From contig JBDTZT010000001.1 of NCBI GenBank assembly GCA_040005005.1, positions 1 to 25,067 of the forward strand: 25,067 nucleotides of DNA, in the 5' to 3' direction. How positions within the stretch are numbered: the first letter of the stretch is position 1; the number at the start of each line of letters is the position of its first letter. The notes below the pieces were generated by a model. That model saw only the letters and a list, made by a program, of their open reading frames with translations, was not told the DNA's origin and did no database searches. This document shows positions 1,875 to 23,587 of the stretch, one piece after another. Source of the stretch: Actinomycetota bacterium (GTDB lineage Bacteria; Acidobacteriota; Blastocatellia; Pyrinomonadales; Pyrinomonadaceae). A program made the position numbers and the translations under genes.

Positions 1875-3518
1875 ATGTATTTGACGTTTTCGATGCGATT
1901 AATTGTGTCAGGATTCATTTTCGCCGTTTTGAGCGGGATGAATTTGCAGGCCCAGGCGTCTAAAAACAGTTCACAACTCTCACAATCACAGAAAAGCAGT
2001 AGTATTTTGATCAAGCAAGGCATCGAAGCCTTTCAGAACGGTGATTTGATAAATGCTCGCTCGTTGCTTGAAAGCGCCCTAAAAGCGAACCCGAACGACC
2101 CGGAAGCACATCAATATCTCGGAATTCTGGACGACGGCGCAGGTGATTTCAAAAACGCGGAAATTCATTTTGCGAAAGCGGCGAGGTTATCACCGAAATC
2201 GGCCTCGGTACGGAATAATTACGGTGCTATTTTACTAAAAAACAACCGTCAGCGTGAGGCGGCGGCGGAATTTGAGGCATCTTTGAAAATTGACGCGAAG
2301 CAGCCGAATGCGATCGTCAATCTCGCGCAAATTCGGTATATCGAAAATACGCCGGAAAGCCTGCGCGCTTCGTTCGGTCTGTTTGAGCGGGCCGCCGCTT
2401 TGATTTCTGATGCGACGGTCGAACGCTCGTTAATCGTCATTGCGCTGCGGCTCAAAAACACCGCGCAGGCAGCTAAACATTATCAAATTTACGCCGGACA
2501 GACAGCGAATGCCAGTGCCGATTCGAACGCCGCGGCGAATCGCGCCGAACTTGGAGGCGCGCTTTTTGAAGCCGGGTTATTCGGCGAAGCGGAAACGGAA
2601 TTGAAGGCGGCCATCGCCGCTGATTCGACCAACAGCGATGCTACTATCCTTTTGGGACGGGTTTATCTGGCGCGTGGCGACATCAAATCTGCCGGTCTGC
2701 TGCTCGAAACGGCAGTCGTCCGAAAACAGGCGACGGCCGGAATTTATTCTTTACTGGCCGTCGTTTACGAGAAAAGCGGACATTACGAAAATGCAATTCC
2801 GGCGATGCGCCTCGCCATTGGTTTAAAGCCTGATTCGGAAAATTATCGTTTTCAATACGGACTGCTGCTGACCAACGCCGATGCCCCCGCTGCCGCAGTT
2901 ATTCGGCTCGATGAAGCATTAAAAACCTTTCCGAATTCGCCGCGTTTGTGGCTTGCCCGCGGCATTGCCGACCTGAAGGATAATAAGAATTTTGAAGCCG
3001 CCCAATCAATCACCAAAGCGATTGCGCTGGATTCGAAATTCGCCCAGGCTTATGCTTATCTCGGACTGGCGCGGGCCCAAGTCGGCGAGTATCAGGAAGC
3101 GGTAAAATTGTATGAAAAGGCGCTTGCAAACGATCCGGGTTTGGCGGTCGTTCACCAATTGATCGCTGATGCGCTGCTTCAGCAAACCGACGGCGATCCA
3201 GTGCGGATCGAAGCCGAATTAAAAAAGTCAATCGCGTTCGCCGCCGATTTTCTGCCGGCTCATTTGACGCTTGGCAAACTTTATGTGCGGATGCAGCGCT
3301 GGACGGAAGCCGTTGTCGAACTGAGCGAAGTCGTGCGCCAAAACCCCGAATCGGCGGAAGCCTATTATCTGCTCGGTCGCGTTTACGCCCGTCTCAAACT
3401 TAAAAAAGAAACCGACGCGGCACTCGCGAAATTTAAGGAACTAAGCGAATCACAAAAAACAAAATCCGACGTTGATTTGCGCGAAACAGTGCGCCGTTTG
3501 GCTGATGTTAAATTTTAG
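1875..3518 (+). CDS. Secreted tetratricopeptide-repeat protein
   Basis: Sec-type signal peptide (..LSGMNLQA-QA) with no lipobox Cys. Many TPR motifs, e.g. ALKANPNDPEAHQYLG, AIALDSKFAQAYAYLG, VVRQNPESAEAYYLLGRVY. Confidence 0.9.
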   Translation: MYLTFSMRLIVSGFIFAVLSGMNLQAQASKNSSQLSQSQKSSSILIKQGIEAFQNGDLINARSLLESALKANPNDPEAHQYLGILDDGAGDFKNAEIHFAKAARLSPKSASVRNNYGAILLKNNRQREAAAEFEASLKIDAKQPNAIVNLAQIRYIENTPESLRASFGLFERAAALISDATVERSLIVIALRLKNTAQAAKHYQIYAGQTANASADSNAAANRAELGGALFEAGLFGEAETELKAAIAADSTNSDATILLGRVYLARGDIKSAGLLLETAVVRKQATAGIYSLLAVVYEKSGHYENAIPAMRLAIGLKPDSENYRFQYGLLLTNADAPAAAVIRLDEALKTFPNSPRLWLARGIADLKDNKNFEAAQSITKAIALDSKFAQAYAYLGLARAQVGEYQEAVKLYEKALANDPGLAVVHQLIADALLQQTDGDPVRIEAELKKSIAFAADFLPAHLTLGKLYVRMQRWTEAVVELSEVVRQNPESAEAYYLLGRVYARLKLKKETDAALAKFKELSESQKTKSDVDLRETVRRLADVKF

Positions 3519-3620
3519 TCATCAAATTATTACCGGAACTCAAACGGGGCAAGAGTCTGAGAGAAAAATACGGACTTAACTTCTGGCGGATTTCGGAGTT
3601 TGAAAGGAAACGTAAGATAT

Positions 3621-4772
3621 ATGATATTCAAAAGGCAGCGAATTTGGCGATTAACGGCGATCATCATGCTTTTGTGCAGTCTCGCCGTGAGTGGTTGGGC
3701 GCAGCAGAAATGGACGGCGCAGAAGGCGAACGATTGGTATAAAAATCAACCGTTTCTGGTCGGCGCAAATTTTAATCCGGCGACCGCGATCAACGAGCTT
3801 GAAATGTGGCAGGCCGATTCATTCGATCCGCAGCGCATTGATCTCGAACTCGGCTGGGCGGAAAAAATCGGGATGAACACGATGCGCGTTTATCTGCACG
3901 ATCTTTTGTGGAAACAGGATTCGGTGGGTTTTACCAAGCGTTTGAACGAATTTCTGACCATTGCCGACAAACATAAAATCAAACCGGTTTTCGTGATTTT
4001 CGATTCGTGTTGGGACCCGTATCCCGCGCTCGGCCGGCAGCGCGAACCGCGTCCGGGCATTCATAATTCCGGTTGGGTGCAGTCTCCGGGCGCCGTCGGC
4101 TTGACCGATCCGGCACAGTATCCGCGCCTTGAAGCGTATGTCAAAGGATTGGTCGGAGCGTTCAAAAACGACCGGCGCATTTTGGCGTGGGACGTTTGGA
4201 ACGAACCCGACAATACGAACGGCAGTTCATACGGCGCGAGCGAACCGATCAACAAAGTCGAACTCGTCAATAAACTGCTGCCGCAGGCATTTCAATGGGC
4301 GCGTTCGGCCAATCCGTCGCAGCCGCTCACCTCGGCCGTCTGGAAAGGCGATTATTCAGCGGATGACAAGCTCGACGCGACGCAGAAAATTCAACTCGAA
4401 AATTCCGACATCATGACCTTTCACAACTACGATTCGGGCGAAGAGTTCGAGAAGCGAATCAAATGGCTCGAGCGTTACCAGCGCCCGATCCTCTGCACCG
4501 AATATATGGCGCGAGGCAATAATTCGACTTTTCAAAATTCGCTTCCCGTCGCCAAAAAATACAAAGTTGCGGCAATTAACTGGGGACTTGTCGGGGGCAA
4601 ATCGCAGACTTTTCTGCCGTGGGATTCGTGGGAAAAACCCTACGTCGGACGCGAGCCGAAAATCTGGTTTCATGAAGTTTTCCGGATTGACGGCACGCCC
4701 TATCTGCAGGAAGAAGTCAATCTGATTATGGAATTGACCGGCAAAAGCAAAGCGATGAGTGCGGCGAAATAA
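3621..4772 (+). CDS. Glycoside hydrolase family 5 (resembles subfamily GH5_13, arabinofuranosidase/galactofuranosidase type)
   Basis: Signal peptide; clan GH-A motifs WDVWNEPDN (acid/base) and CTEYMAR (nucleophile); N-terminal WT.QKANDWY...GANF.P.TAINELEMWQ. ATG 3621 follows AAAGGAAA and is preferred to TTG 3600. The subfamily call is from recall only. Confidence 0.8.
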   Translation: MIFKRQRIWRLTAIIMLLCSLAVSGWAQQKWTAQKANDWYKNQPFLVGANFNPATAINELEMWQADSFDPQRIDLELGWAEKIGMNTMRVYLHDLLWKQDSVGFTKRLNEFLTIADKHKIKPVFVIFDSCWDPYPALGRQREPRPGIHNSGWVQSPGAVGLTDPAQYPRLEAYVKGLVGAFKNDRRILAWDVWNEPDNTNGSSYGASEPINKVELVNKLLPQAFQWARSANPSQPLTSAVWKGDYSADDKLDATQKIQLENSDIMTFHNYDSGEEFEKRIKWLERYQRPILCTEYMARGNNSTFQNSLPVAKKYKVAAINWGLVGGKSQTFLPWDSWEKPYVGREPKIWFHEVFRIDGTPYLQEEVNLIMELTGKSKAMSAAK

Positions 4773-16693: not shown

Positions 16694-19600
16694 TTAAAAG
16701 CTAAATCGCAACGCAAACTGCATAATGCGCGGGTCGCCTTGCAAAGTTGTGATGGTGCCGAAACCACCGCCGTTGATCGTTCGATTCGGAAGTCCGAAAT
16801 TGGCGTGATTAAGGACATTAAAAACTTCCCAGCGGAATTCAAGATTCGTGTTTTCGCGGCCCAGATTAAAACGACGATGAACGGCCATATCAAGCGAAGC
16901 GAATCCGGGTCCGCGCAGCGCATTGCGCGGCTGTAAACCAAAACGCGTCGTGCTGCCGGTTAATAGCGCAAATGCCGCCGTATTAAAAAAATTATCAACC
17001 GTTTGATTCGTCACATTCGGGTCGCCGACTAAATCGGCAAGTTCGGTTGAAAGCGAACCGAGTTTGAGAGGATCGCCCGACTGCGTCACGGTAAATGGTC
17101 TGCCCGAACGGACATTGAGACTTCCCGTCAAATCCCAACCGCCCAAAATTGCCCCGCTGATTCCGCTTTTGAAAAATTGTTTGCCATTGCCGAACGGTAA
17201 TTCCCAGATACCGTTGACGACAAACCGGTGCCGGACATCGAAATCCGAGGGTCCATACCAATTTGACAGATTGCGGGAGTTATCGGGCAGTGAATTCGAA
17301 CCGCCGCTCGTTAAATGCTCACCGGAATTATCTTTCGATTGCGACAAAGTATAAACGGCGCGCACGGTGTAGCCGTTGGAAAATCGTTTATCGAGCGTCG
17401 TTTCAAAACCGTCATAACGCGATACGCCGTTGTCTTCGCGGTATTCGATCAAACCGAATTGCGGAAACGGGCGCGTGTTCGGCTGGTTCGGGAGCGGCTG
17501 ATTCAAATCGCGCAGGGTATAAAGTTTCGTTCCTTTGGTATGCACGTAGTTGGCTTCGGCAAACCAGTCGTTGCCGAATTGATACTGGACGCCGATACTC
17601 ATCTGCTGAATATAAGGTGTTTGCGCGTCGGATTTACCGGCCCGAACCTGAATGTTGCGGATTTGAATATTGTTCGGACTAAGTAAATTAGCGGGAAGCC
17701 CGCCGCTTAAGGTAACGCCCGCAACGGCTGAACCGGCCGTGTCGGTGCGCGTATTGAAGTTAATGATATTCGGCGGATTAAGCGCGATCTGATCTTCCGA
17801 ACCAATGCGGTCAATCAAGTTGTAATAAATCCCGTAACCGCCGCGCACAACGAATTTATTAGTGACTGAATACGCAAAACCGAAGCGCGGCGCGAAATTA
17901 TTGCGGTCGGGTTTGATCAGCGAACGGCTTTCCAAACTTCCGTCGCTTGCCAATCTTAAGGATGCCAGAGCCTGTGCCTGGTTGGTCGCGGCGAGAGCGG
18001 CGACCGGATCGAAATTCGCCAGCCGATTTCCCGCCTCAAACGAAGGCGAGCCGAAATCGTAGCGCAGTCCGAGGTTAAGGGTTAATTTCGGAGTCACTTT
18101 CCAATCGTCCTGACCGAAATACGAATACATATAACGGCGTTGCCGGACGACACTTGAATTCGTCAGCAAAACATTGATCGGTGTTCCGGCGAGAAAATCG
18201 GCAAGTGCATTACCGGTTCCGCTTAAACCCAAATAACTCGTGTAAGCCGCGGCGAAGTCAAACCGTCCGCGCGTTCCGGGAACGTCAATGTAATCGAGTT
18301 TGAGCGGAGCCATAATATCGGGTCCGAAACGAACCGTATGGGCGCCGCGGATGACGGTCGTCGTGTTAGTGAATTGAAATTGTTTTGACTTTTGAAATTT
18401 CGGCAAAAAGTCGGCCGAACCGAGCCGCGGACTAAATCCCGAAATAACGATTGCCGGAATGCCGCCCTGACCGACATCGGGCAATCCGCGGATGAAGGTC
18501 GAACTGTTGCCTTCACCGAACGGCTCCTGGGTCGAAGTCGCGTTGGCATAGTTGTAACCAAAGCGGAATTGATTAAAGACATTGGCGGAGATCGTGTAAT
18601 TCCAACCCGTTACTAAAGCGTGCGTTTTAACGCTCGTCAGTCCCCATGCCGAAGTATCCGTCCCGTCCGCCACACCGCCGAAAAAACCGGGGACAAAGCG
18701 GTTGCGTTTGCCGTAAGCATAACGACCGAAAATGTCATTTTTTGAATTAATCTTATAATCGAGCCGCGTGGTCAGGCGGTCGCCGTCATCGGTTAAAGTC
18801 GGCGTGCGGGCAAAATTATTAGATGTTCCGCCGAGCGTCGGATTCGGAAATAGTGCCGCCAAACGGGCAGCAACCGGGTCAATATTGGAAATCAGATTAC
18901 CGCCGTAGGGCTGCGGAAAATATGGCAGATTTGTCAGTCCGGGAGCTTGATTCGGATTAAAATTCGGGTTCGGACACAGGTTGCGGCTGTTCGGATTGAA
19001 GATCTGTCCGCTGCGCACGACCTGCCCCGAAAGGGTTCCGTCGCAATTAAAAATCGGAATCTGATTACCGCTGACGGTAATAGGACTGCCGAGCCGGGCG
19101 GAAAAGTTGCCGGCTTTTTCCGTTGCCAGCGGGACGGTCGCAATTCGCAAAACGCCTTGTCTGATGCGGGTTCCCTCAAAGTCGGTGAAAAAGAACGCCC
19201 GGTTTTTCCAAATCGGACCGCCAAAATTGCCGCCGAATTGGTTCTGAACCCGTTGCGGACGTTTGCGTCCTAAACGATTCGAGAAAAAATCGTTCGCATC
19301 GAAAACCCGGTTTCGCAGGTATTCGTAAGCTAACCCGTGAAAATCGTTGGTTCCCGATTTGGTCGTCACGCTGACAACACCGCCGGCCGCGCGTCCCGTG
19401 TCGGCGGAAAATTGCGACGTGATGACCTTAAATTCGCCCAAAGAATCAATCGAAGGGCGCGAAACCTGCGTCGAAAATTCCTGCACGTTCGTCGAGATCG
19501 AATTATTGTCCTGTCCGTCGAGAATAAAATTATTGTAAAGCGAACGAATGCCGTGAATATTGACCGAGCCGGTTCGGCCCGAAGCGGTGCCGCCGGATTG

Positions 19601-20125
19601 TTCCGTATAGGGATCGCCCTGCGTTCCGGCAACCTGCGTCAGGAGGTCATCCCAGCTGCGCTGCGGTAGCGGGAGAGTCGTGACGCGGCGATTATCAACG
19701 ACATTGCCGAGACTTGCGTCTTCGCGCTGGAGCTGCGATTGTGTTTCCGAAGTAACCTCAACAACCGCACTGGCATCGCCGACGGAAAGCGTTAAATCAA
19801 GCCGCGCTTTTTGCCCGATGTTTAATTCATAGTCTTTCAGTGAACTGGTTTTGAAATTTGGTTGCGCCGCTTCGATCGTGTATCGGCTCGGTCGCAAGTT
19901 CGTAAAAGTGTAATAACCGTCGCTATTGGTGGTCGTTTCCGTCCTGATGCCGGTTGCCTGATTAGTCGCCGTGACCCGCGCTCCCGCAACGACCGCGCCT
20001 TGCGGGTCAGTTAAGAGTCCGGTCAGCGAAGCGGTGTCAATTTGCGTCCAACTTACCGTCGCACCGAACATCAATAAAATTAAAGCCCCGCAAATTCGGT
20101 GGATGAAAAACTTTCGATTGCACAT
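16694..20125 (-). CDS. TonB-dependent receptor with N-terminal carboxypeptidase-regulatory-like domain
   Basis: Signal peptide; SLTGLLTDPQGAVVAGARVTATN; YEYLRN..FDANDFF; QDDWKVTPKLTLNLGLRYD; ends PRIMQFALRFSF. GAGGAG RBS. Confidence 0.95.
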   Translation of the reverse strand: MCNRKFFIHRICGALILLMFGATVSWTQIDTASLTGLLTDPQGAVVAGARVTATNQATGIRTETTTNSDGYYTFTNLRPSRYTIEAAQPNFKTSSLKDYELNIGQKARLDLTLSVGDASAVVEVTSETQSQLQREDASLGNVVDNRRVTTLPLPQRSWDDLLTQVAGTQGDPYTEQSGGTASGRTGSVNIHGIRSLYNNFILDGQDNNSISTNVQEFSTQVSRPSIDSLGEFKVITSQFSADTGRAAGGVVSVTTKSGTNDFHGLAYEYLRNRVFDANDFFSNRLGRKRPQRVQNQFGGNFGGPIWKNRAFFFTDFEGTRIRQGVLRIATVPLATEKAGNFSARLGSPITVSGNQIPIFNCDGTLSGQVVRSGQIFNPNSRNLCPNPNFNPNQAPGLTNLPYFPQPYGGNLISNIDPVAARLAALFPNPTLGGTSNNFARTPTLTDDGDRLTTRLDYKINSKNDIFGRYAYGKRNRFVPGFFGGVADGTDTSAWGLTSVKTHALVTGWNYTISANVFNQFRFGYNYANATSTQEPFGEGNSSTFIRGLPDVGQGGIPAIVISGFSPRLGSADFLPKFQKSKQFQFTNTTTVIRGAHTVRFGPDIMAPLKLDYIDVPGTRGRFDFAAAYTSYLGLSGTGNALADFLAGTPINVLLTNSSVVRQRRYMYSYFGQDDWKVTPKLTLNLGLRYDFGSPSFEAGNRLANFDPVAALAATNQAQALASLRLASDGSLESRSLIKPDRNNFAPRFGFAYSVTNKFVVRGGYGIYYNLIDRIGSEDQIALNPPNIINFNTRTDTAGSAVAGVTLSGGLPANLLSPNNIQIRNIQVRAGKSDAQTPYIQQMSIGVQYQFGNDWFAEANYVHTKGTKLYTLRDLNQPLPNQPNTRPFPQFGLIEYREDNGVSRYDGFETTLDKRFSNGYTVRAVYTLSQSKDNSGEHLTSGGSNSLPDNSRNLSNWYGPSDFDVRHRFVVNGIWELPFGNGKQFFKSGISGAILGGWDLTGSLNVRSGRPFTVTQSGDPLKLGSLSTELADLVGDPNVTNQTVDNFFNTAAFALLTGSTTRFGLQPRNALRGPGFASLDMAVHRRFNLGRENTNLEFRWEVFNVLNHANFGLPNRTINGGGFGTITTLQGDPRIMQFALRFSF

Positions 20126-20380
20126 TTATTTAATCAACTCCTCTTCAAATAGATAAAATTTTCTCCATCAAAAACGGATTGTTATTCATTTCTTGAATCC
20201 AATTTTTTGACTCATTTTCCTGTGGTTTAGTCTGGAGAAGAGATAGTCTAACAACGGGTGTTTAATAAAATGTGTCGGTTATCTAATCAGTGAGTTAATT
20301 TTTTATGAAATTGAGGTAACGAATTTTACTAACTAAGAGGTTACTAAAATAATTGCCAACAAAATAAATTTTTCATAAAA

Positions 20381-20407
20381 GGTCTCCTCGTTTGGATCAG
20401 AGGAGCC
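20381..20407. other. Intergenic hairpin
   Basis: GG(T)CTCCTC...GAGGAGCC stem. On the minus strand it is followed by TTTT. Function unclear. Confidence 0.3.
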
Positions 20408-20434
20408 GAAAACCGGTTTGGTCGCAAAAGTATT

Positions 20435-20464
20435 TTGACTTAGATCGTAAATTTTGCAATAAAT
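20435..20464 (+). promoter_or_regulatory. Candidate sigma70 promoter for the ileS leader
   Basis: TTGACT at 20435-20440, with a poor TG-preceded -10-like AT-rich hexamer at about 20458-20464. This would start transcription near the leader ATG at 20471. Confidence 0.3.
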
Positions 20465-20470
20465 GAAGTG

Positions 20471-20524
20471 ATGAAAAATTTTAACATTATAATTGGCATT
20501 TTTATTTTGGATGACCACGGCTGA
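20471..20524 (+). CDS. Putative Ile-rich attenuator leader peptide MKNFNIIIGIFILDDHG
   Basis: Five Ile codons (ATT ATA ATT . ATT . ATT) within codons 6-12. It lies directly upstream of an antiterminator/terminator pair and of ileS. Confidence 0.65.
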   Translation: MKNFNIIIGIFILDDHG

Positions 20525-20565
20525 AGCTGGAAAGAAAATTTTTGCTTATGCCGCGCGTCCTGAAT
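20504..20565 (+). promoter_or_regulatory. Putative antiterminator hairpin
   Basis: 20504-20521 (AUUUUGGAUGACCACGGC) pairs imperfectly with 20550-20565 (GCCGCGCGUCCUGAAU). AAGC 20524-20527 pairs with GCUU 20544-20547. This sequesters the 5' arm of the terminator. Confidence 0.55.
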
Positions 20566-20591
20566 CGTCAGATTCGGGATTTTTTATTTTT
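20558..20591 (+). terminator. Intrinsic terminator in the ileS leader
   Basis: TCCTGAATC-GTCA-GATTCGGGA (9 bp, one G-U) followed by TTTTTTATTTTT. Confidence 0.8.
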
Positions 20592-20599
20592 AATCAGAA

Positions 20600-20665
20600 A
20601 CAAACAGGATTGATAGACAAGATATATTCAATCGCATCTTGGCAAATCCTGTCTATCTTGTTTGT
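20600..20665. repeat. REP-like imperfect palindrome built from ~9-nt ACA[GA]GAT units
   Basis: ACAAACAGGATTGATAG pairs with CTGTCTATCTTGTTTGT. In an alternative register GATAGACAAGAT pairs with ATCCTGTCTATC. Confidence 0.55.
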
Positions 20666-20704
20666 ATGACTTTTTTATCGTGATAACATTGAGTTTTTAA
20701 ATTT

Positions 20705-23587
20705 ATGAGTGAACCTTTAGAACTGAAAAAAACCGTTAATTTACCGAAAACCGATTTCGCGCAAAAAGCGAATCTCGGACAAGCAGAACCCGCGCGTTTG
20801 AAAAAATGGTCGGACGCGCGGCTATACGAAGCGATTCAAACGGCGCGTCAAACAGCAGAAAAATTCATTTTGCACGACGGTCCGCCGTATGCCAATGCCG
20901 ATATTCACATCGGCACGGCGCTCAATAAAATTTTAAAGGATTTTGTCGTCAAATCGCGCTCGATGATGGGTTTCGAGGCGCCATACATTCCGGGTTACGA
21001 TTGCCACGGGCTTCCGATCGAAACGCATGTCGAGAAAAAGTTGAAGGAAAAAGGCAAGAACAAAAACGATTTGCCGGTCGCGACCTTCCGCCGAATCTGC
21101 CGCGAACACGCTTCGACGGCGATGAATAATCAGACGCGCGATTTTTCGCGGCTCGGAATCTTGGGCGAATGGGAAAAGCCTTATCTCACGATGTCGAACG
21201 AATACGAATCGGAAACGGCGCGGCTTTTCGGGCGGTTTCTGGAACGCGGCTACGTTTATAAAGGTTTGCGTCCCGTCTATTGGTGTATTCACGACCAGAC
21301 GGCTTTGGCAGAAGCGGAAGTCGAATACAAACTCCACACTTCGCCTTCGATCTACGTAAAATTTCCGCTGGTGACCGATCCGGCGGAACTTGACGCTAAC
21401 TTAGCGGGCAAAAGAGTTTCGCTCGTGATCTGGACAACTACGCCGTGGACAATTCCGGCAAATCTGGGAATCGCGGTTCATCCTGATTTTGAATATGTCG
21501 CTTTTGAAAGTTGCGGTGAGATTTTGGTGGTCGCTGCTGAACTTGTCGGTTTGGTCGTCGTTAAATGCTGTCTCGGCGAAGCGAACGAAAACGGCGAACG
21601 CCAAATTCCGCCAGTTCTGGCAAGATTTAAAGGCTCAAAGCTCAACAATATGAAAGCGAAACATCCGTGGATTGACCGTGAATCGTTAATAATGAACGGC
21701 GAACACGTGACGATGGGCGGCGAAGCGGACGCGGAAACGGAAGTTGATGTTTCCGAAGCACGCGAGAAAAAAGAAACGGCTAAAGCCGGCACGGGACTCG
21801 TCCACACCGCGCCCGGTCACGGCCACGACGACTATGTGATCGGCAAGGAATACGGCTTGGAAATCTATTGTCCGGTTGATAGCGCGGGACGGTTTGCGGC
21901 TGAAGTCGAACATTTTGCGGGCGAAAATATTTTCACCGCGAATCCCAAAATCGTCGAATTTATGCGCGAAAACGGTTCTCTACTGTTTTCGGAAAACTAC
22001 GAGCATCGTTATCCGCATTGCTGGCGATGTAAAAACCCGGTGATTTTTCGCGCGACCCCGCAGTGGTTTATCTCGATGGACGAAGTGGGCGAAAAATCCT
22101 TGCGCGCGCAGGCTTTGCGCGAAGTTGAGAGCGTCAAATGGCATCCGGCCTGGGGGATGGGGCGAATGGCGAATATGATAAAGCAGCGTCCCGATTGGTG
22201 CGTTTCGCGGCAGCGTTCGTGGGGCGTGCCGATTCCCGTGTTTTATTGCCAGAAATGCAATGAGCCAATCGCCGACGCGAAGATCGTCAATCACGTCGCC
22301 GATATTTTTGCCAAAGAAACCGCCGACGCCTGGTATAACCGGCCGGAATCGGAACTACTGCCCGAAGGGTTTACTTGCCCGAAATGCAACAGTTCGGATT
22401 TCAGCAAGGAAACCGACATTCTCGATGTTTGGTTCGATTCGGGTTCGAGTTGTGTTGCCGTGCTCGAAACGCGTGAAAACTTACGTTTTCCGGCGGACGT
22501 TTATCTCGAAGGCGGCGACCAGTATCGCGGTTGGTTTAACTCAAGTCTGATGTGCGGAATCGCCGCGCACGACACCGCGCCGTATCGGCAGGTCATCACG
22601 CACGGCTGGGTCGTTGACGGAAACGGCAAAAAGCAGAGTAAAAATGATGGAAATGTGACCGCGCCGAAGGAAATCATCGACAAATCCGGCGCAGATGTTT
22701 TGCGCCTGTGGGCGGCGGCGGTTGATTACACCGAAGATATGCGCTGTTCCGATGAAATTCTGCAGCGCGTCACGGATGCCTATCGAAAATTTAGAAATAC
22801 TCTGCGGTACGCGCTCGGCAATCTTGACGGATTTAATCCCGAAACCGAAAGTGTCCCGCTTGCCGAGATGCTCGAGATTGACCGTTGGGCGTTGGCGAGC
22901 TTTAATGAGGCGGCGAAAAAAATCCTCGCCGGTTATGAAGCCTTTGATTTTCAAGCGGTTTATCAGACGATCTACAATCTTTGCACCGTTACACTTTCGG
23001 CGCGGTATTTTGACATCATCAAAGACCGTCTTTATATCTTTGCGCCAAAGTCGCCGGAACGTCGTTCGGCGCAAACCGCGCTCTTTGAGATGACCGACAA
23101 ATTGTGCCGTCTGCTCGCACCTGTTCTGGCATTTACAGCGGACGAAGCGTTTGAAAATTTGCCGGAGCAAAAACTCGCGTCGGTGCATCTCGCGGAATTT
23201 CCGAAGCTCACGGGCGCTGATAATTCAAAGCTTTTGAGCGATTGGGAGCGTATCTTCTCGATCCGCGATGATGTTTTGAAGGCACTCGAAGAAGCCCGCG
23301 AGCGCAAGGAGATCGGTTCGTCGCTCGAAGCGAAAGTCGTTTTGAAGACCGACGGCGAAACGGCGCGTTTTTTGATGCCGTATTACGAAGATCTGCGCTA
23401 TATCTTTATCGCGTCGCAGGTCGAAGTGCACGAAGAAGATTATTTCGGAGTGCACATCGAAAAAGCCGCCGGCGCGAAATGCGAACGCTGCTGGAATTAC
23501 TCGACAAGAGTCGGCGAATCGGAAAAATATCCGACCGTCTGCGAAAGATGCGTCGCGGCATTGGCGGAAATCGAAAACGCGTTATAA
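20705..23587 (+). CDS. ileS: Isoleucine--tRNA ligase (type 1)
   Basis: LHDGPPYAN, PGYDCHGLPIE, IWTTTPWTIPAN, GTGLVHTAPGHG, RPDWCVSRQRSWG, DVWFDSG, EGGDQYRGWF; C-terminal zinc finger CERCW...CERC. Confidence 0.98.
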   Translation: MSEPLELKKTVNLPKTDFAQKANLGQAEPARLKKWSDARLYEAIQTARQTAEKFILHDGPPYANADIHIGTALNKILKDFVVKSRSMMGFEAPYIPGYDCHGLPIETHVEKKLKEKGKNKNDLPVATFRRICREHASTAMNNQTRDFSRLGILGEWEKPYLTMSNEYESETARLFGRFLERGYVYKGLRPVYWCIHDQTALAEAEVEYKLHTSPSIYVKFPLVTDPAELDANLAGKRVSLVIWTTTPWTIPANLGIAVHPDFEYVAFESCGEILVVAAELVGLVVVKCCLGEANENGERQIPPVLARFKGSKLNNMKAKHPWIDRESLIMNGEHVTMGGEADAETEVDVSEAREKKETAKAGTGLVHTAPGHGHDDYVIGKEYGLEIYCPVDSAGRFAAEVEHFAGENIFTANPKIVEFMRENGSLLFSENYEHRYPHCWRCKNPVIFRATPQWFISMDEVGEKSLRAQALREVESVKWHPAWGMGRMANMIKQRPDWCVSRQRSWGVPIPVFYCQKCNEPIADAKIVNHVADIFAKETADAWYNRPESELLPEGFTCPKCNSSDFSKETDILDVWFDSGSSCVAVLETRENLRFPADVYLEGGDQYRGWFNSSLMCGIAAHDTAPYRQVITHGWVVDGNGKKQSKNDGNVTAPKEIIDKSGADVLRLWAAAVDYTEDMRCSDEILQRVTDAYRKFRNTLRYALGNLDGFNPETESVPLAEMLEIDRWALASFNEAAKKILAGYEAFDFQAVYQTIYNLCTVTLSARYFDIIKDRLYIFAPKSPERRSAQTALFEMTDKLCRLLAPVLAFTADEAFENLPEQKLASVHLAEFPKLTGADNSKLLSDWERIFSIRDDVLKALEEARERKEIGSSLEAKVVLKTDGETARFLMPYYEDLRYIFIASQVEVHEEDYFGVHIEKAAGAKCERCWNYSTRVGESEKYPTVCERCVAALAEIENAL

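What the first reader, a model, noticed from the sequence alone, without database searches (positions are those of the whole stretch)
20471..20591. Isoleucine-sensing leader-peptide attenuator upstream of ileS
Seen: (i) the ORF 20471-20524, MKNFNIIIGIFILDDHG, with five Ile codons in seven positions. (ii) An intrinsic terminator at 20558-20591, about 115 nt before ileS. (iii) An alternative helix, 20504-20521 with 20550-20565, that captures the terminator's 5' arm. A ribosome stalled on Ile codons 6-8 would leave most of the antiterminator arm (20509-20521) free, giving read-through. One reaching the stop at 20522 would cover it, giving termination. Established: this is the logic of the E. coli trp, his, thr, ilvGMEDA and pheST attenuators, whereas ileS in Firmicutes and Actinobacteria uses T-boxes. 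I know of no characterised example for ileS in this lineage, but the literature needs checking. Caveat: ATT codons are common in AT-rich DNA.
Basis: partly seen in the sequence, partly recalled or inferred. Interest (0 to 1): 0.85.

Follow-up and report, generated by a model that had tools for sequence, protein, structure and literature searches.

The report
Isoleucine leader-peptide attenuator before ileS
A 17-codon, isoleucine-rich mini-gene, an RNA switch and a transcription stop signal sit in front of the isoleucyl-tRNA synthetase gene of a soil acidobacterium (Pyrinomonadaceae) and recur in about a third of its family, so this is very probably the textbook ribosome-stalling sensor applied to a gene and a phylum for which I found no published description.

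Summary
The ORF 20471-20524 (MKNFNIIIGIFILDDHG), the terminator (stem 20557-20580 plus T tract) and the competing helix (20504-20521 with 20550-20565) are all present.

- All 16 same-genus genomes that can be checked carry a 16-18-codon ORF with 3-6 Ile codons from codon 6-8, followed by a terminator.
- A covariance model finds one strong copy per genome in 40 of 121 Pyrinomonadaceae genomes (19 of 60 genera). Every copy that can be checked lies 7-169 nt upstream of ileS.
- Ile codons are in frame 155 times, against 16 and 21 out of frame.
- The antiterminator arm (GGGAC) is conserved in three different reading frames.
- The terminator shows eight compensatory pairs.
- Simulated folding gives a stable antiterminator with a ribosome on the Ile codons and none with a ribosome at the stop codon.

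New points: the mini-gene is probably leaderless, and a second promoter-like element (20681-20689) lies between terminator and ileS. The same genome also has ilvB and cysteine-synthase leader peptides.

The mechanism is textbook, so this is a new member of a known kind. This scan has already noted ileS leader peptides in CPR bacteria, Alphaproteobacteria and Comamonadaceae. No transcript data exist.

The parts
20435..20440 (+). P1 -35 element TTGACT
   Evidence: Invariant TTGACT at a fixed 17-nt spacing from the -10-like hexamer in 21 related loci. The consensus scan did not flag it because its -10 rule needs a T at position 6.
20455..20463 (+). P1 extended -10-like element TGC-AATAAA
   Evidence: Conserved as TG(C/G)-(A/C/G)ATAA(A/C) in relatives. 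The leader ATG follows 7 nt later in the window and in all type A and most type B relatives, which implies a leaderless or nearly leaderless mRNA. Inferred, not mapped.
20471..20524 (+). Leader ORF, 17 codons plus stop: MKNFNIIIGIFILDDHG
   Evidence: In 39 distinct relatives, Ile makes up 24% of leader residues against 6.7% in the proteome. ATH triplets fall 155 times in frame against 16 and 21 out of frame.
20486..20506 (+). Regulatory Ile codons 6, 7, 8, 10 and 12 (ATT ATA ATT .. ATT .. ATT)
   Evidence: The Ile run starts at codon 6-8 in 36 of 39 leaders and all three Ile codons are used (ATT 91, ATC 33, ATA 31). A ribosome with its A site on codons 6-10 leaves the antiterminator arm free.
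20504..20521 (+). Antiterminator 5' arm (ATTT, GGATG, CGGC), inside the 3' end of the ORF
   Evidence: RNAfold helices. The homologous arm GGGAC/GGAC is 86-97% paired with the terminator 5' arm across 39 sequences, with a G-C to A-U double change. It is conserved in three different reading frames.
20524..20547 (+). Inner hairpin enclosed by the antiterminator
   Evidence: Present in every fold of the window. An analogous hairpin is present in relatives.
20550..20565 (+). Antiterminator 3' arm; overlaps the terminator 5' arm from 20557
20557..20591 (+). Intrinsic terminator: 10-bp stem, GTCA loop, T tract
   Evidence: Pairing is 91.9% across 39 sequences and 8 pairs have compensatory changes. 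It is the RNAalifold consensus.
20681..20689 (+). P2: extended -10-like motif TGATAACAT, 16 nt upstream of the ileS ATG
   Evidence: TGnTA(A/G)(A/C/G)AT is present between terminator and ileS in all same-genus loci. It is also present in relatives that lack the attenuator, and absent where the terminator abuts the ATG. Inferred promoter.
20705..23587 (+). ileS, the regulated gene (960 aa)
   Evidence: TIGR00392 at 902.9 bits, against a cut-off of 621.

Best explanation
This is a classical ribosome-mediated transcription attenuator that sets ileS transcription according to the supply of charged tRNA-Ile.

Proposed mechanism:
1. Transcription starts at promoter P1 (TTGACT-17-AATAAA), at or next to the ATG of a 17-codon ORF. 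The ORF is therefore probably translated as a leaderless message.
2. When Ile-tRNA(Ile) is plentiful, the ribosome runs to the stop codon at 20522. There it covers the arm 20504-20521. The terminator 20557-20580 then forms and most P1 transcripts end near 20591.
3. When Ile-tRNA(Ile) is scarce, through lack of isoleucine or lack of IleRS activity, the ribosome stalls on Ile codons 6-10. The arm stays free and pairs with 20550-20565. This sequesters the 5' half of the terminator, and RNA polymerase reads through into ileS.
4. A second promoter-like element next to ileS (20681-20689) would give a basal level of expression. The attenuator would add inducible expression on top of it.

Shown by computation: all the sequence elements, their conservation, their covariation, and their exclusive linkage to ileS.
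Inferred: the transcript starts, leaderless translation, the stalling, and the response to isoleucine.
For: - The elements are present at the stated coordinates.
- Within the genus, 16 of 16 checkable genomes carry the ORF with an Ile run plus the terminator. The sequences fall into three diverged subtypes.
- A covariance model searched over whole genomes finds one strong hit per genome in 40 of 121 Pyrinomonadaceae genomes (19 of 60 genera). All 27 hits with enough flank lie 7-169 nt upstream of ileS on the same strand.
- The upstream neighbours differ between loci: a TonB-receptor-like gene, an IS200 transposase, phosphoglucomutase, M13 peptidase and DUF2442. The element therefore travels with ileS.
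- In six relatives the terminator ends 13-14 nt before the ileS ATG with no promoter-like motif in between. In those loci ileS can only be transcribed through the terminator.
- Ile codons are selected as codons. ATH triplets number 155 in frame against 16 and 21 out of frame, and all three synonymous Ile codons are used.
- The antiterminator arm GGGAC sits in three different frames (RDF, KGT, EGL), so it is conserved as RNA.
- The terminator has 8 compensatory pairs.
- In simulated folding of 39 leaders, a ribosome on the Ile codons leaves a structure of -10.5 to -31 kcal/mol that holds about half of the terminator 5' arm. A ribosome at the stop codon leaves 0 to -7 kcal/mol.
- In 35 of 39 leaders at least two Ile codons lie 13 nt or more upstream of the arm, and the arm starts 11-21 nt before the stop codon.
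- The same genome uses the mechanism elsewhere. It has an Ile/Val-rich leader plus terminator before ilvB and a CCCCCQC leader plus terminator before cysteine synthase.
Against: - There are no transcript, Term-seq or ribosome-profiling data. The only RNA run that holds any of the sequence covers 4% of the sampled words.
- P1 is inferred from conservation alone and was not called by the consensus promoter scan.
- The conserved P2-like motif downstream of the terminator means ileS could be expressed without the attenuator in this genus.
- The antiterminator contacts to the terminator arm are short in the window (4 + 5 bp, plus a separate 4-bp helix). Most of its columns are invariant within a subtype, so the covariation support is moderate.
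- A few relatives keep the ORF and terminator with only 2 Ile (L046, L048) or a degenerate ORF (L039).
- The related sequences are not independent samples.
Confidence: 0.8

Rival explanations
1. The mini-gene with its terminator is an independent transcription unit, either a small hydrophobic peptide or an sRNA. On this reading ileS is transcribed only from the proximal promoter-like element at 20681-20689, and the position upstream of ileS is mere linkage.
For: A conserved extended -10-like motif lies between terminator and ileS in all same-genus loci. It is also present in relatives that lack the mini-gene. The terminator is strong.
Against: Only the Ile run is conserved as peptide, and the remaining residues change with the frame of the RNA arm. 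The element is found nowhere else in the genomes and always precedes ileS despite changing upstream neighbours. In six relatives the terminator abuts the ileS ATG without any promoter-like motif. The conserved complementarity between the ORF end and the terminator arm has no role in this reading.
Confidence: 0.08
2. The leader is a transcription attenuator, but the sensor is not a ribosome stalled on Ile codons. A protein (for example IleRS binding its own leader) or uncharged tRNA would stabilise one of the two RNA structures instead.
For: Other aminoacyl-tRNA synthetase genes are controlled in that way: T-boxes in Firmicutes and Actinobacteria (PMC1262725), and the E. coli thrS operator by established knowledge. 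The alternative structures alone do not say what flips them.
Against: Nothing in Rfam matches the region, T-box included, even at E up to 10. The strong in-frame excess of Ile codons, the fixed start of the Ile run at codon 6-8 and the fixed distance to the arm and stop codon are unexplained without translation.
Confidence: 0.07
3. The ORF and helix are a chance product of AT-rich intergenic DNA next to an ordinary terminator.
Against: The ORF is conserved in GC-richer relatives that use ATC and ATA codons, the frame bias is 155 against 16 and 21, and the whole genome holds a single such hit.
Confidence: 0.01

Closest known systems
E. coli pheST attenuator (pheM leader peptide)
   Same: A short leader ORF rich in the cognate amino acid, then terminator and antiterminator, upstream of an aminoacyl-tRNA synthetase operon. 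It senses charged tRNA, and therefore also the synthetase's own activity. This rests on established knowledge; PMC1262725 names pheST as the gamma-proteobacterial example.
   Different: The amino acid (Phe, not Ile), the gene and the phylum differ. Here the leader is probably leaderless and a second promoter-like element follows the terminator.
Enterobacterial ilvGMEDA / ilvBN leaders (ilvL, ivbL) and this genome's own ilvB leader
   Same: Ile/Val-rich leader peptide plus terminator. The window's genome has such a leader before ilvB on contig C511 (..SPFVIISISVIILFGG). The ileS covariance model weakly cross-hits an ilvB leader (MQNSVVIIISIIIVSLTKR) in a family relative.
   Different: Those leaders control biosynthetic operons and mix Ile, Val and Leu codons. 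The ileS leader is almost purely Ile and controls the synthetase.
T-box riboswitches upstream of ileS (Firmicutes; translational T-boxes in Actinobacteria)
   Same: Same gene and the same physiological signal, the charging level of tRNA-Ile (PMC1262725).
   Different: T-boxes bind uncharged tRNA directly and need no translation. No T-box match was found here or in 20 ileS loci of relatives, most of which lack the leader.
'ileS leader CDS' CCNA_03934 of Caulobacter crescentus (Schrader et al. 2014, PMC4117421)
   Same: A small CDS named as the ileS leader in that ribosome-profiling-based annotation.
   Different: In that paper it is used only as a negative control in a swarm-plate assay. I found no sequence, structure or regulatory analysis, and I could not fetch the locus for comparison.
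Mycobacterial leaderless poly-cysteine short ORFs (bioRxiv 10.1101/834739)
   Same: A leaderless short ORF whose run of one amino acid's codons makes downstream expression respond to that amino acid (title and abstract only).
   Different: It differs in amino acid and phylum. Here an intrinsic terminator and antiterminator pair is evident.

Membership tests
Classical ribosome-mediated (leader-peptide) transcription attenuator | Short ORF in the 5' leader with clustered codons for the regulatory amino acid | tested here: met
   17 codons, 5 Ile in codons 6-12. Conserved with 3-6 Ile in 36 of 39 distinct relatives, with an in-frame ATH excess of 155 against 16 and 21.
Classical ribosome-mediated (leader-peptide) transcription attenuator | Intrinsic terminator between the leader ORF and the regulated gene | tested here: met
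   Stem 20557-20580 plus T tract, -14.2 kcal/mol, 8 compensatory pairs.
Classical ribosome-mediated (leader-peptide) transcription attenuator | Antiterminator mutually exclusive with the terminator. Its 5' arm is free when a ribosome sits on the regulatory codons and covered when it sits at the stop codon. | tested here: met
   Tested in silico only. Helices 20504-20521 with 20550-20565. The core is 86-97% paired in 39 sequences, exceeding slid and shuffled controls. Footprint-constrained folds. Spacing.
Classical ribosome-mediated (leader-peptide) transcription attenuator | Promoter upstream of the leader, so that ORF, terminator and gene form one transcript | tested here: inconclusive
   Conserved TTGACT-17-NATAAA. 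Six relatives have the terminator 13-14 nt from the ileS ATG. There is also a P2-like motif downstream in the window, and no RNA data exist.
Classical ribosome-mediated (leader-peptide) transcription attenuator | Read-through rises when the cognate charged tRNA is limiting and depends on translation of the regulatory codons | not testable with these tools
   Needs reporter, Term-seq or in vitro coupled assays.
Classical ribosome-mediated (leader-peptide) transcription attenuator | Upstream 1:2 (pause or protector) hairpin that sequesters the antiterminator arm when the leader is not translated | tested here: inconclusive
   The full-length minimum-energy fold pairs 20494-20501 with 20509-20517. 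The pre-terminator fold without a ribosome prefers the antiterminator. Not examined across relatives.
Attenuator of an aminoacyl-tRNA synthetase gene by its cognate amino acid (pheM-pheST type) | The regulated gene is the synthetase for the amino acid enriched in the leader | tested here: met
   The downstream gene is ileS. All 27 checkable model hits precede ileS. valS has no such leader.
T-box riboswitch | Match to the T-box model (stem I with specifier loop, T-box sequence in the antiterminator) | tested here: not met
   No T-box hit in 20000-20800 even at E up to 10.
Leaderless short-ORF attenuators (mycobacterial poly-Cys type) | Transcript starts at the start codon of the short ORF | not testable with these tools
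   Only the spacing is available. The -10-like hexamer ends 7 nt before the ATG in the window and 6-12 nt before it in most type A, B and D relatives.

The most novel reading that the evidence does not exclude
Leader-peptide control of ileS may be a widespread and essentially undescribed alternative to the T-box. In this reading the Pyrinomonadaceae version is a leaderless mini-gene that arose from the lineage's own ilvB leader, with which it shares an RRLSP-(F)VII/III motif. Combined with a constitutive proximal promoter, it would work as an IleRS-activity homeostat that raises ileS expression both in isoleucine starvation and when natural IleRS inhibitors are met in soil.
Probability: 0.25. 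Interest if true: 0.6.

Novelty: new member of a known kind. Interest (0 to 1): 0.5.

Why it matters
Regulation of aminoacyl-tRNA synthetase genes is well described for T-boxes (Gram-positives) and for a few E. coli cases such as pheST and thrS. Almost nothing is known for Acidobacteriota, a dominant and hard-to-grow soil phylum. [quoted passage not shown]

This element gives a clean, well-conserved and testable example with about 65 natural variants. It shows that the lineage uses classical attenuation for at least ileS, ilvB and cysteine synthase. It also offers a natural series for study: subtypes, leaderless starts, and loci with or without a second promoter. Finally, it would improve annotation, because the mini-gene is too short for gene callers.

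The mechanism itself is textbook, so it does not change concepts.

Tried and rejected
- Rfam scan of 20000-20800 at E up to 10 gave only chance-level hits (tmRNA and sRNA models at 10-20 bits) and no T-box or leader family.
- A search for public RNA runs found no usable transcript data. One ice metatranscriptome holds 4% of the sampled words and the rest are DNA runs. I therefore did not lay reads.
- The consensus promoter scan did not call P1 or P2. Its three hits (20325-20353, 20481-20508 and one on the minus strand) are at the level expected from shuffles.
- The genome-wide de novo scan produced other apparent leaders (MTTTTTTTTPKKNK and MCGEIIIIQFREFIRF on C443, MLPMIIII on C208). These face convergent genes or have no downstream gene, and I rejected them as chance.
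- valS upstream regions in four same-genus genomes show no Val-rich leader.
- The weaker secondary hits of the covariance model are an unrelated repeated small ORF (MNLRRILILVNEHPPNI), terminator-only matches, and one genuine ilvB leader.
- ileS loci below about 76% identity to the window (other Pyrinomonadaceae genera, other Blastocatellia, Terriglobia, Vicinamibacterales) have no Ile-run ORF with a terminator. L070 and L108 have Ile runs that are the ends of longer frames.
- I could not fetch the Caulobacter ileS leader for comparison.
- I did not resolve the second antiterminator helix (CGGC with GCCG) by covariation. It is invariant within type A and shifted by one column in type B.

Full report
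**1. What is in the window**

The stretch 20126-20704 is a 579-nt gap between two genes. One is a minus-strand TonB-receptor-like gene (16694-20125). The other is ileS on the plus strand (20705-23587; TIGR00392 at 903 bits). ileS is followed by a small aspartic-protease-like gene and lspA.

- The ORF is ATG AAA AAT TTT AAC ATT ATA ATT GGC ATT TTT ATT TTG GAT GAC CAC GGC TGA at 20471-20524.
- A terminator-like hairpin lies at 20557-20580 with 10 pairs and a GTCA loop, followed by TTTTTTATTTT.
- Folding the transcript as it exists before the 3' terminator arm is made gives three helices: 20504-20507 with 20562-20565, 20509-20513 with 20556-20560, and 20518-20521 with 20550-20553. They surround an inner hairpin at 20524-20547.
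- No Rfam family matches the region, not even weakly for T-box.

**2. Is it more than chance?**

I scanned the whole 4.36-Mb assembly for short ORFs that end within 90 nt of a terminator-like hairpin. Of 4068 such sites, 94 distinct intergenic ORFs had four or more identical residues in a 7-residue window. Seven of these were Ile-rich, and only one had five Ile: the ORF in front of ileS.

**3. Conservation**

- The assembly belongs to the Pyrinomonadaceae (Blastocatellia, Acidobacteriota), judging by the record titles of the nearest genomes.
- All 16 same-genus genomes with enough upstream sequence have a 16-18-codon ORF with 3-6 Ile, followed by a terminator, 80-140 nt before ileS. A seventeenth is cut by a contig end.
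- The sequences fall into diverged subtypes:
  - Type A (..IIISIIILEDNG), to which the window belongs.
  - Type B (..IIIIRITEDRR).
  - Type C (..IIIxxxRDFT).
  - Type D (MRRPSPIII..GT..), found in other genera.
- A covariance model built from 39 distinct leaders was searched over 121 whole genomes sampled evenly from the family.
  - It found matches at E of 0.01 or better in 40 genomes, in 19 of 60 genera.
  - 38 of these had exactly one strong full-length hit (E below 1e-7); the other two had only a weaker hit.
  - The tallies include one unpublished genome, G049. Without it the count is 39 of 120, and the genus count is unchanged. I used no sequence from it.
- All 27 model hits with enough flank lie 7-169 nt upstream of ileS on the same strand.
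- The gene on the other side varies between loci: IS200 transposase, phosphoglucomutase, VWA protein, M13 peptidase and DUF2442, with the receptor-like gene in the window. The element belongs to ileS.
- ileS loci less than about 76% identical to the window, from other genera, classes and orders, have no such ORF. A scan of 20 ileS loci of relatives, most of which lack the leader, found no known RNA family in its place.

**4. Coding signal against RNA signal**

- In the 39 leaders, Ile is 24% of residues after Met1, against 6.7% in the genome's long ORFs.
- ATT, ATC and ATA triplets occur 155 times in frame, against 16 and 21 times in the other two frames.
- All three Ile codons are used. ATA makes up 20% of leader Ile codons against 9% genome-wide.
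- The Ile run starts at codon 6-8 in 36 of 39 leaders.
- The block GGGAC (GGAC in types A and B), 11-21 nt before the stop codon, behaves differently. It is read as R-D-F, K-G-T, Y-G-T, E-G-L or E-D-N depending on subtype. It is therefore conserved as nucleotides.
- GGGAC is complementary to GTCCC, the outer part of the terminator 5' arm. Across the alignment these five pairs are formed in 86-97% of sequences. One pair switches from G-C to A-U in type A. The register exceeds all slid registers and all 500 shuffles for percentage paired.
- The terminator itself is 91.9% paired, with 8 of 13 pairs showing compensatory changes. It is also the RNAalifold consensus.

**5. Geometry and folding**

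- I assumed that a ribosome protects 12 nt beyond the first base of the A-site codon. On that basis, 35 of 39 leaders have at least two Ile codons from which a stalled ribosome leaves the arm free.
- In the window, folding the transcript before the 3' terminator arm is made gives the following:

| A site on | Pre-terminator fold energy | State of the terminator 5' arm |
|---|---|---|
| Ile6 | -20.3 kcal/mol | 8-9 of its 10 bases paired upstream |
| Ile8 | -19.3 kcal/mol | 4 of its 10 bases paired upstream |
| Ile10 | -17.3 kcal/mol | 3 of its 10 bases paired upstream |
| Ile12 | -14.2 kcal/mol | contacts with the upstream antiterminator arm lost |
| stop codon | -1.8 kcal/mol | no pairing with any upstream segment |

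- Over all 39 leaders, the stalled state leaves structures of -10.5 to -31 kcal/mol. The stop-codon state leaves 0 to -7 kcal/mol.

**6. Promoters**

- TTGACT (20435-20440), 17 nt, then AATAAA preceded by TG (20455-20463), is conserved with fixed spacing in 21 loci.
- The leader ATG follows the hexamer by 7 nt in the window, and by 7-10 nt in the other type A and B loci. Type D loci have TGTGnTAnnAT motifs 6-12 nt before the ATG.
- The leader is therefore probably translated from a leaderless or nearly leaderless mRNA. Type C loci have 12-22-nt leaders with purine-rich stretches. All of this is inference from spacing.
- Downstream of the terminator, all same-genus loci carry TGnTA(A/G)(A/C/G)AT. 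In the window this is TGATAACAT at 20681-20689, 16 nt before the ATG. The same motif precedes ileS in relatives that have no attenuator.
- The motif is absent in six relatives whose terminator ends 13-14 nt before the ATG. Those six show that ileS is transcribed through the terminator.
- The window's genus probably combines a basal promoter with an inducible, attenuated one.

**7. Context in the same genome**

- ilvB on contig C511 is preceded by a 35-codon ORF ending ..SPFVIISISVIILFGG plus a terminator. This is conserved in two same-genus genomes.
- A cysteine synthase on contig C561 is preceded by an ORF with CCCCCQC plus a terminator, 31 nt upstream.
- valS has no leader. leuS has a different conserved small ORF.
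- Classical attenuation is thus in general use in this lineage. The ileS element is one of at least three leader-peptide elements in this genome, and the only one found at an aminoacyl-tRNA synthetase gene.

**8. Comparison with what is known**

- The logic is that of the E. coli pheST (pheM) attenuator and of the ilv, trp and his leaders (established knowledge).
- T-boxes do the same job for ileS in Firmicutes, and translationally in Actinobacteria (PMC1262725).
- My literature searches found no described leader-peptide attenuator of ileS.
- Subscription-only papers were not searchable. That includes Russian comparative-genomics work on attenuation of aminoacyl-tRNA synthetase operons, which I recall but could not check.
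- Earlier notes of this scan report ileS leader peptides in CPR bacteria, Alphaproteobacteria and Comamonadaceae. I did not test these. They suggest the theme recurs, which lowers the novelty of the kind but not the soundness of this case.

**9. Verdict**

This is a new member of a known kind. It is of moderate interest because the gene, the phylum, the leaderless start and the dual-promoter layout are new, while the mechanism is textbook.

Noticed in passing
window 20599-20666: A long imperfect palindrome (ACAAACAGGATTGATAGACAAGAT ... ATCCTGTCTATCTTGTTTGT) lies between the attenuator terminator and the proximal promoter-like motif. Similar palindromes with the word ATCCTGTCTATC occur on contigs C405 and C734 of the same genome, and a related one occurs at the same place in relative L039. 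It may be a small repeated palindromic element.
   Followed up: partly
own genome contig C511, upstream of ilvB (ilvB match at 1933-3621, minus strand); L161: A 35-codon leader ORF, MLMQSNIKKINNELKNERFSPFVIISISVIILFGG, followed by a terminator lies directly upstream of ilvB. It is conserved in G017 and G004. Its RRLSP/RFSP-FVII segment resembles the MRRLSPIII start of type D ileS leaders, which hints at a common origin.
   Followed up: partly
own genome contig C561:1678-1839 (minus strand); L159: A short ORF, MKKTRLKNQICCCCCQCAWQ.., plus a terminator lies 31 nt upstream of a cysteine synthase (TIGR01138 cysM 381 bits, TIGR01136 357 bits). It is a candidate cysteine-sensing leader-peptide attenuator.
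   Followed up: partly
L117, L119, L122 (leuS upstream regions of same-genus genomes G004, G001, G017): A conserved 11-codon ORF ending ..(N/F)LALR-stop (CTCGCCCTTAGATAG) is followed by a conserved GC-rich hairpin (GCCGCTCG..CGACGCGGC) without a T tract, upstream of leuS. It is a possible separate regulatory leader.
   Followed up: no
relatives L003, L006, L009, L011-L017 just upstream of the ileS ATG; L113, L115 upstream of valS: Runs of a 7-nt unit (CTGACCR, or CTGATAA in one genome) lie immediately before the start codons of ileS and valS. In valS they form long inverted repeats. After the ileS terminator there are also GATTTTG heptad repeats, and GATTTTGGATTTT occurs 86 times in the window's genome. 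The function is unknown.
   Followed up: no
window 20411-20420: A perfect palindrome AAACCGGTTT lies 15 nt upstream of the P1 -35 element, with palindromic counterparts at the same place in type A relatives (L007, L014). It may be a regulator site or a hairpin.
   Followed up: no
L155 (G133:C53:10343-10464): In another genus of the family, ilvB (TIGR00118, 787 bits) is preceded by the leader MQNSVVIIISIIIVSLTKR plus a terminator. The ileS-leader covariance model picked it up weakly, at E = 5e-4.
   Followed up: yes
L154 (G113:C120:2686-2789 and 4321-4431): There are two near-identical copies of a small ORF (MNLRRILILVNEHPPNI) with a terminator, 1.6 kb apart and each in front of a different gene. 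This is a repeated leader-like module of unknown role.
   Followed up: no
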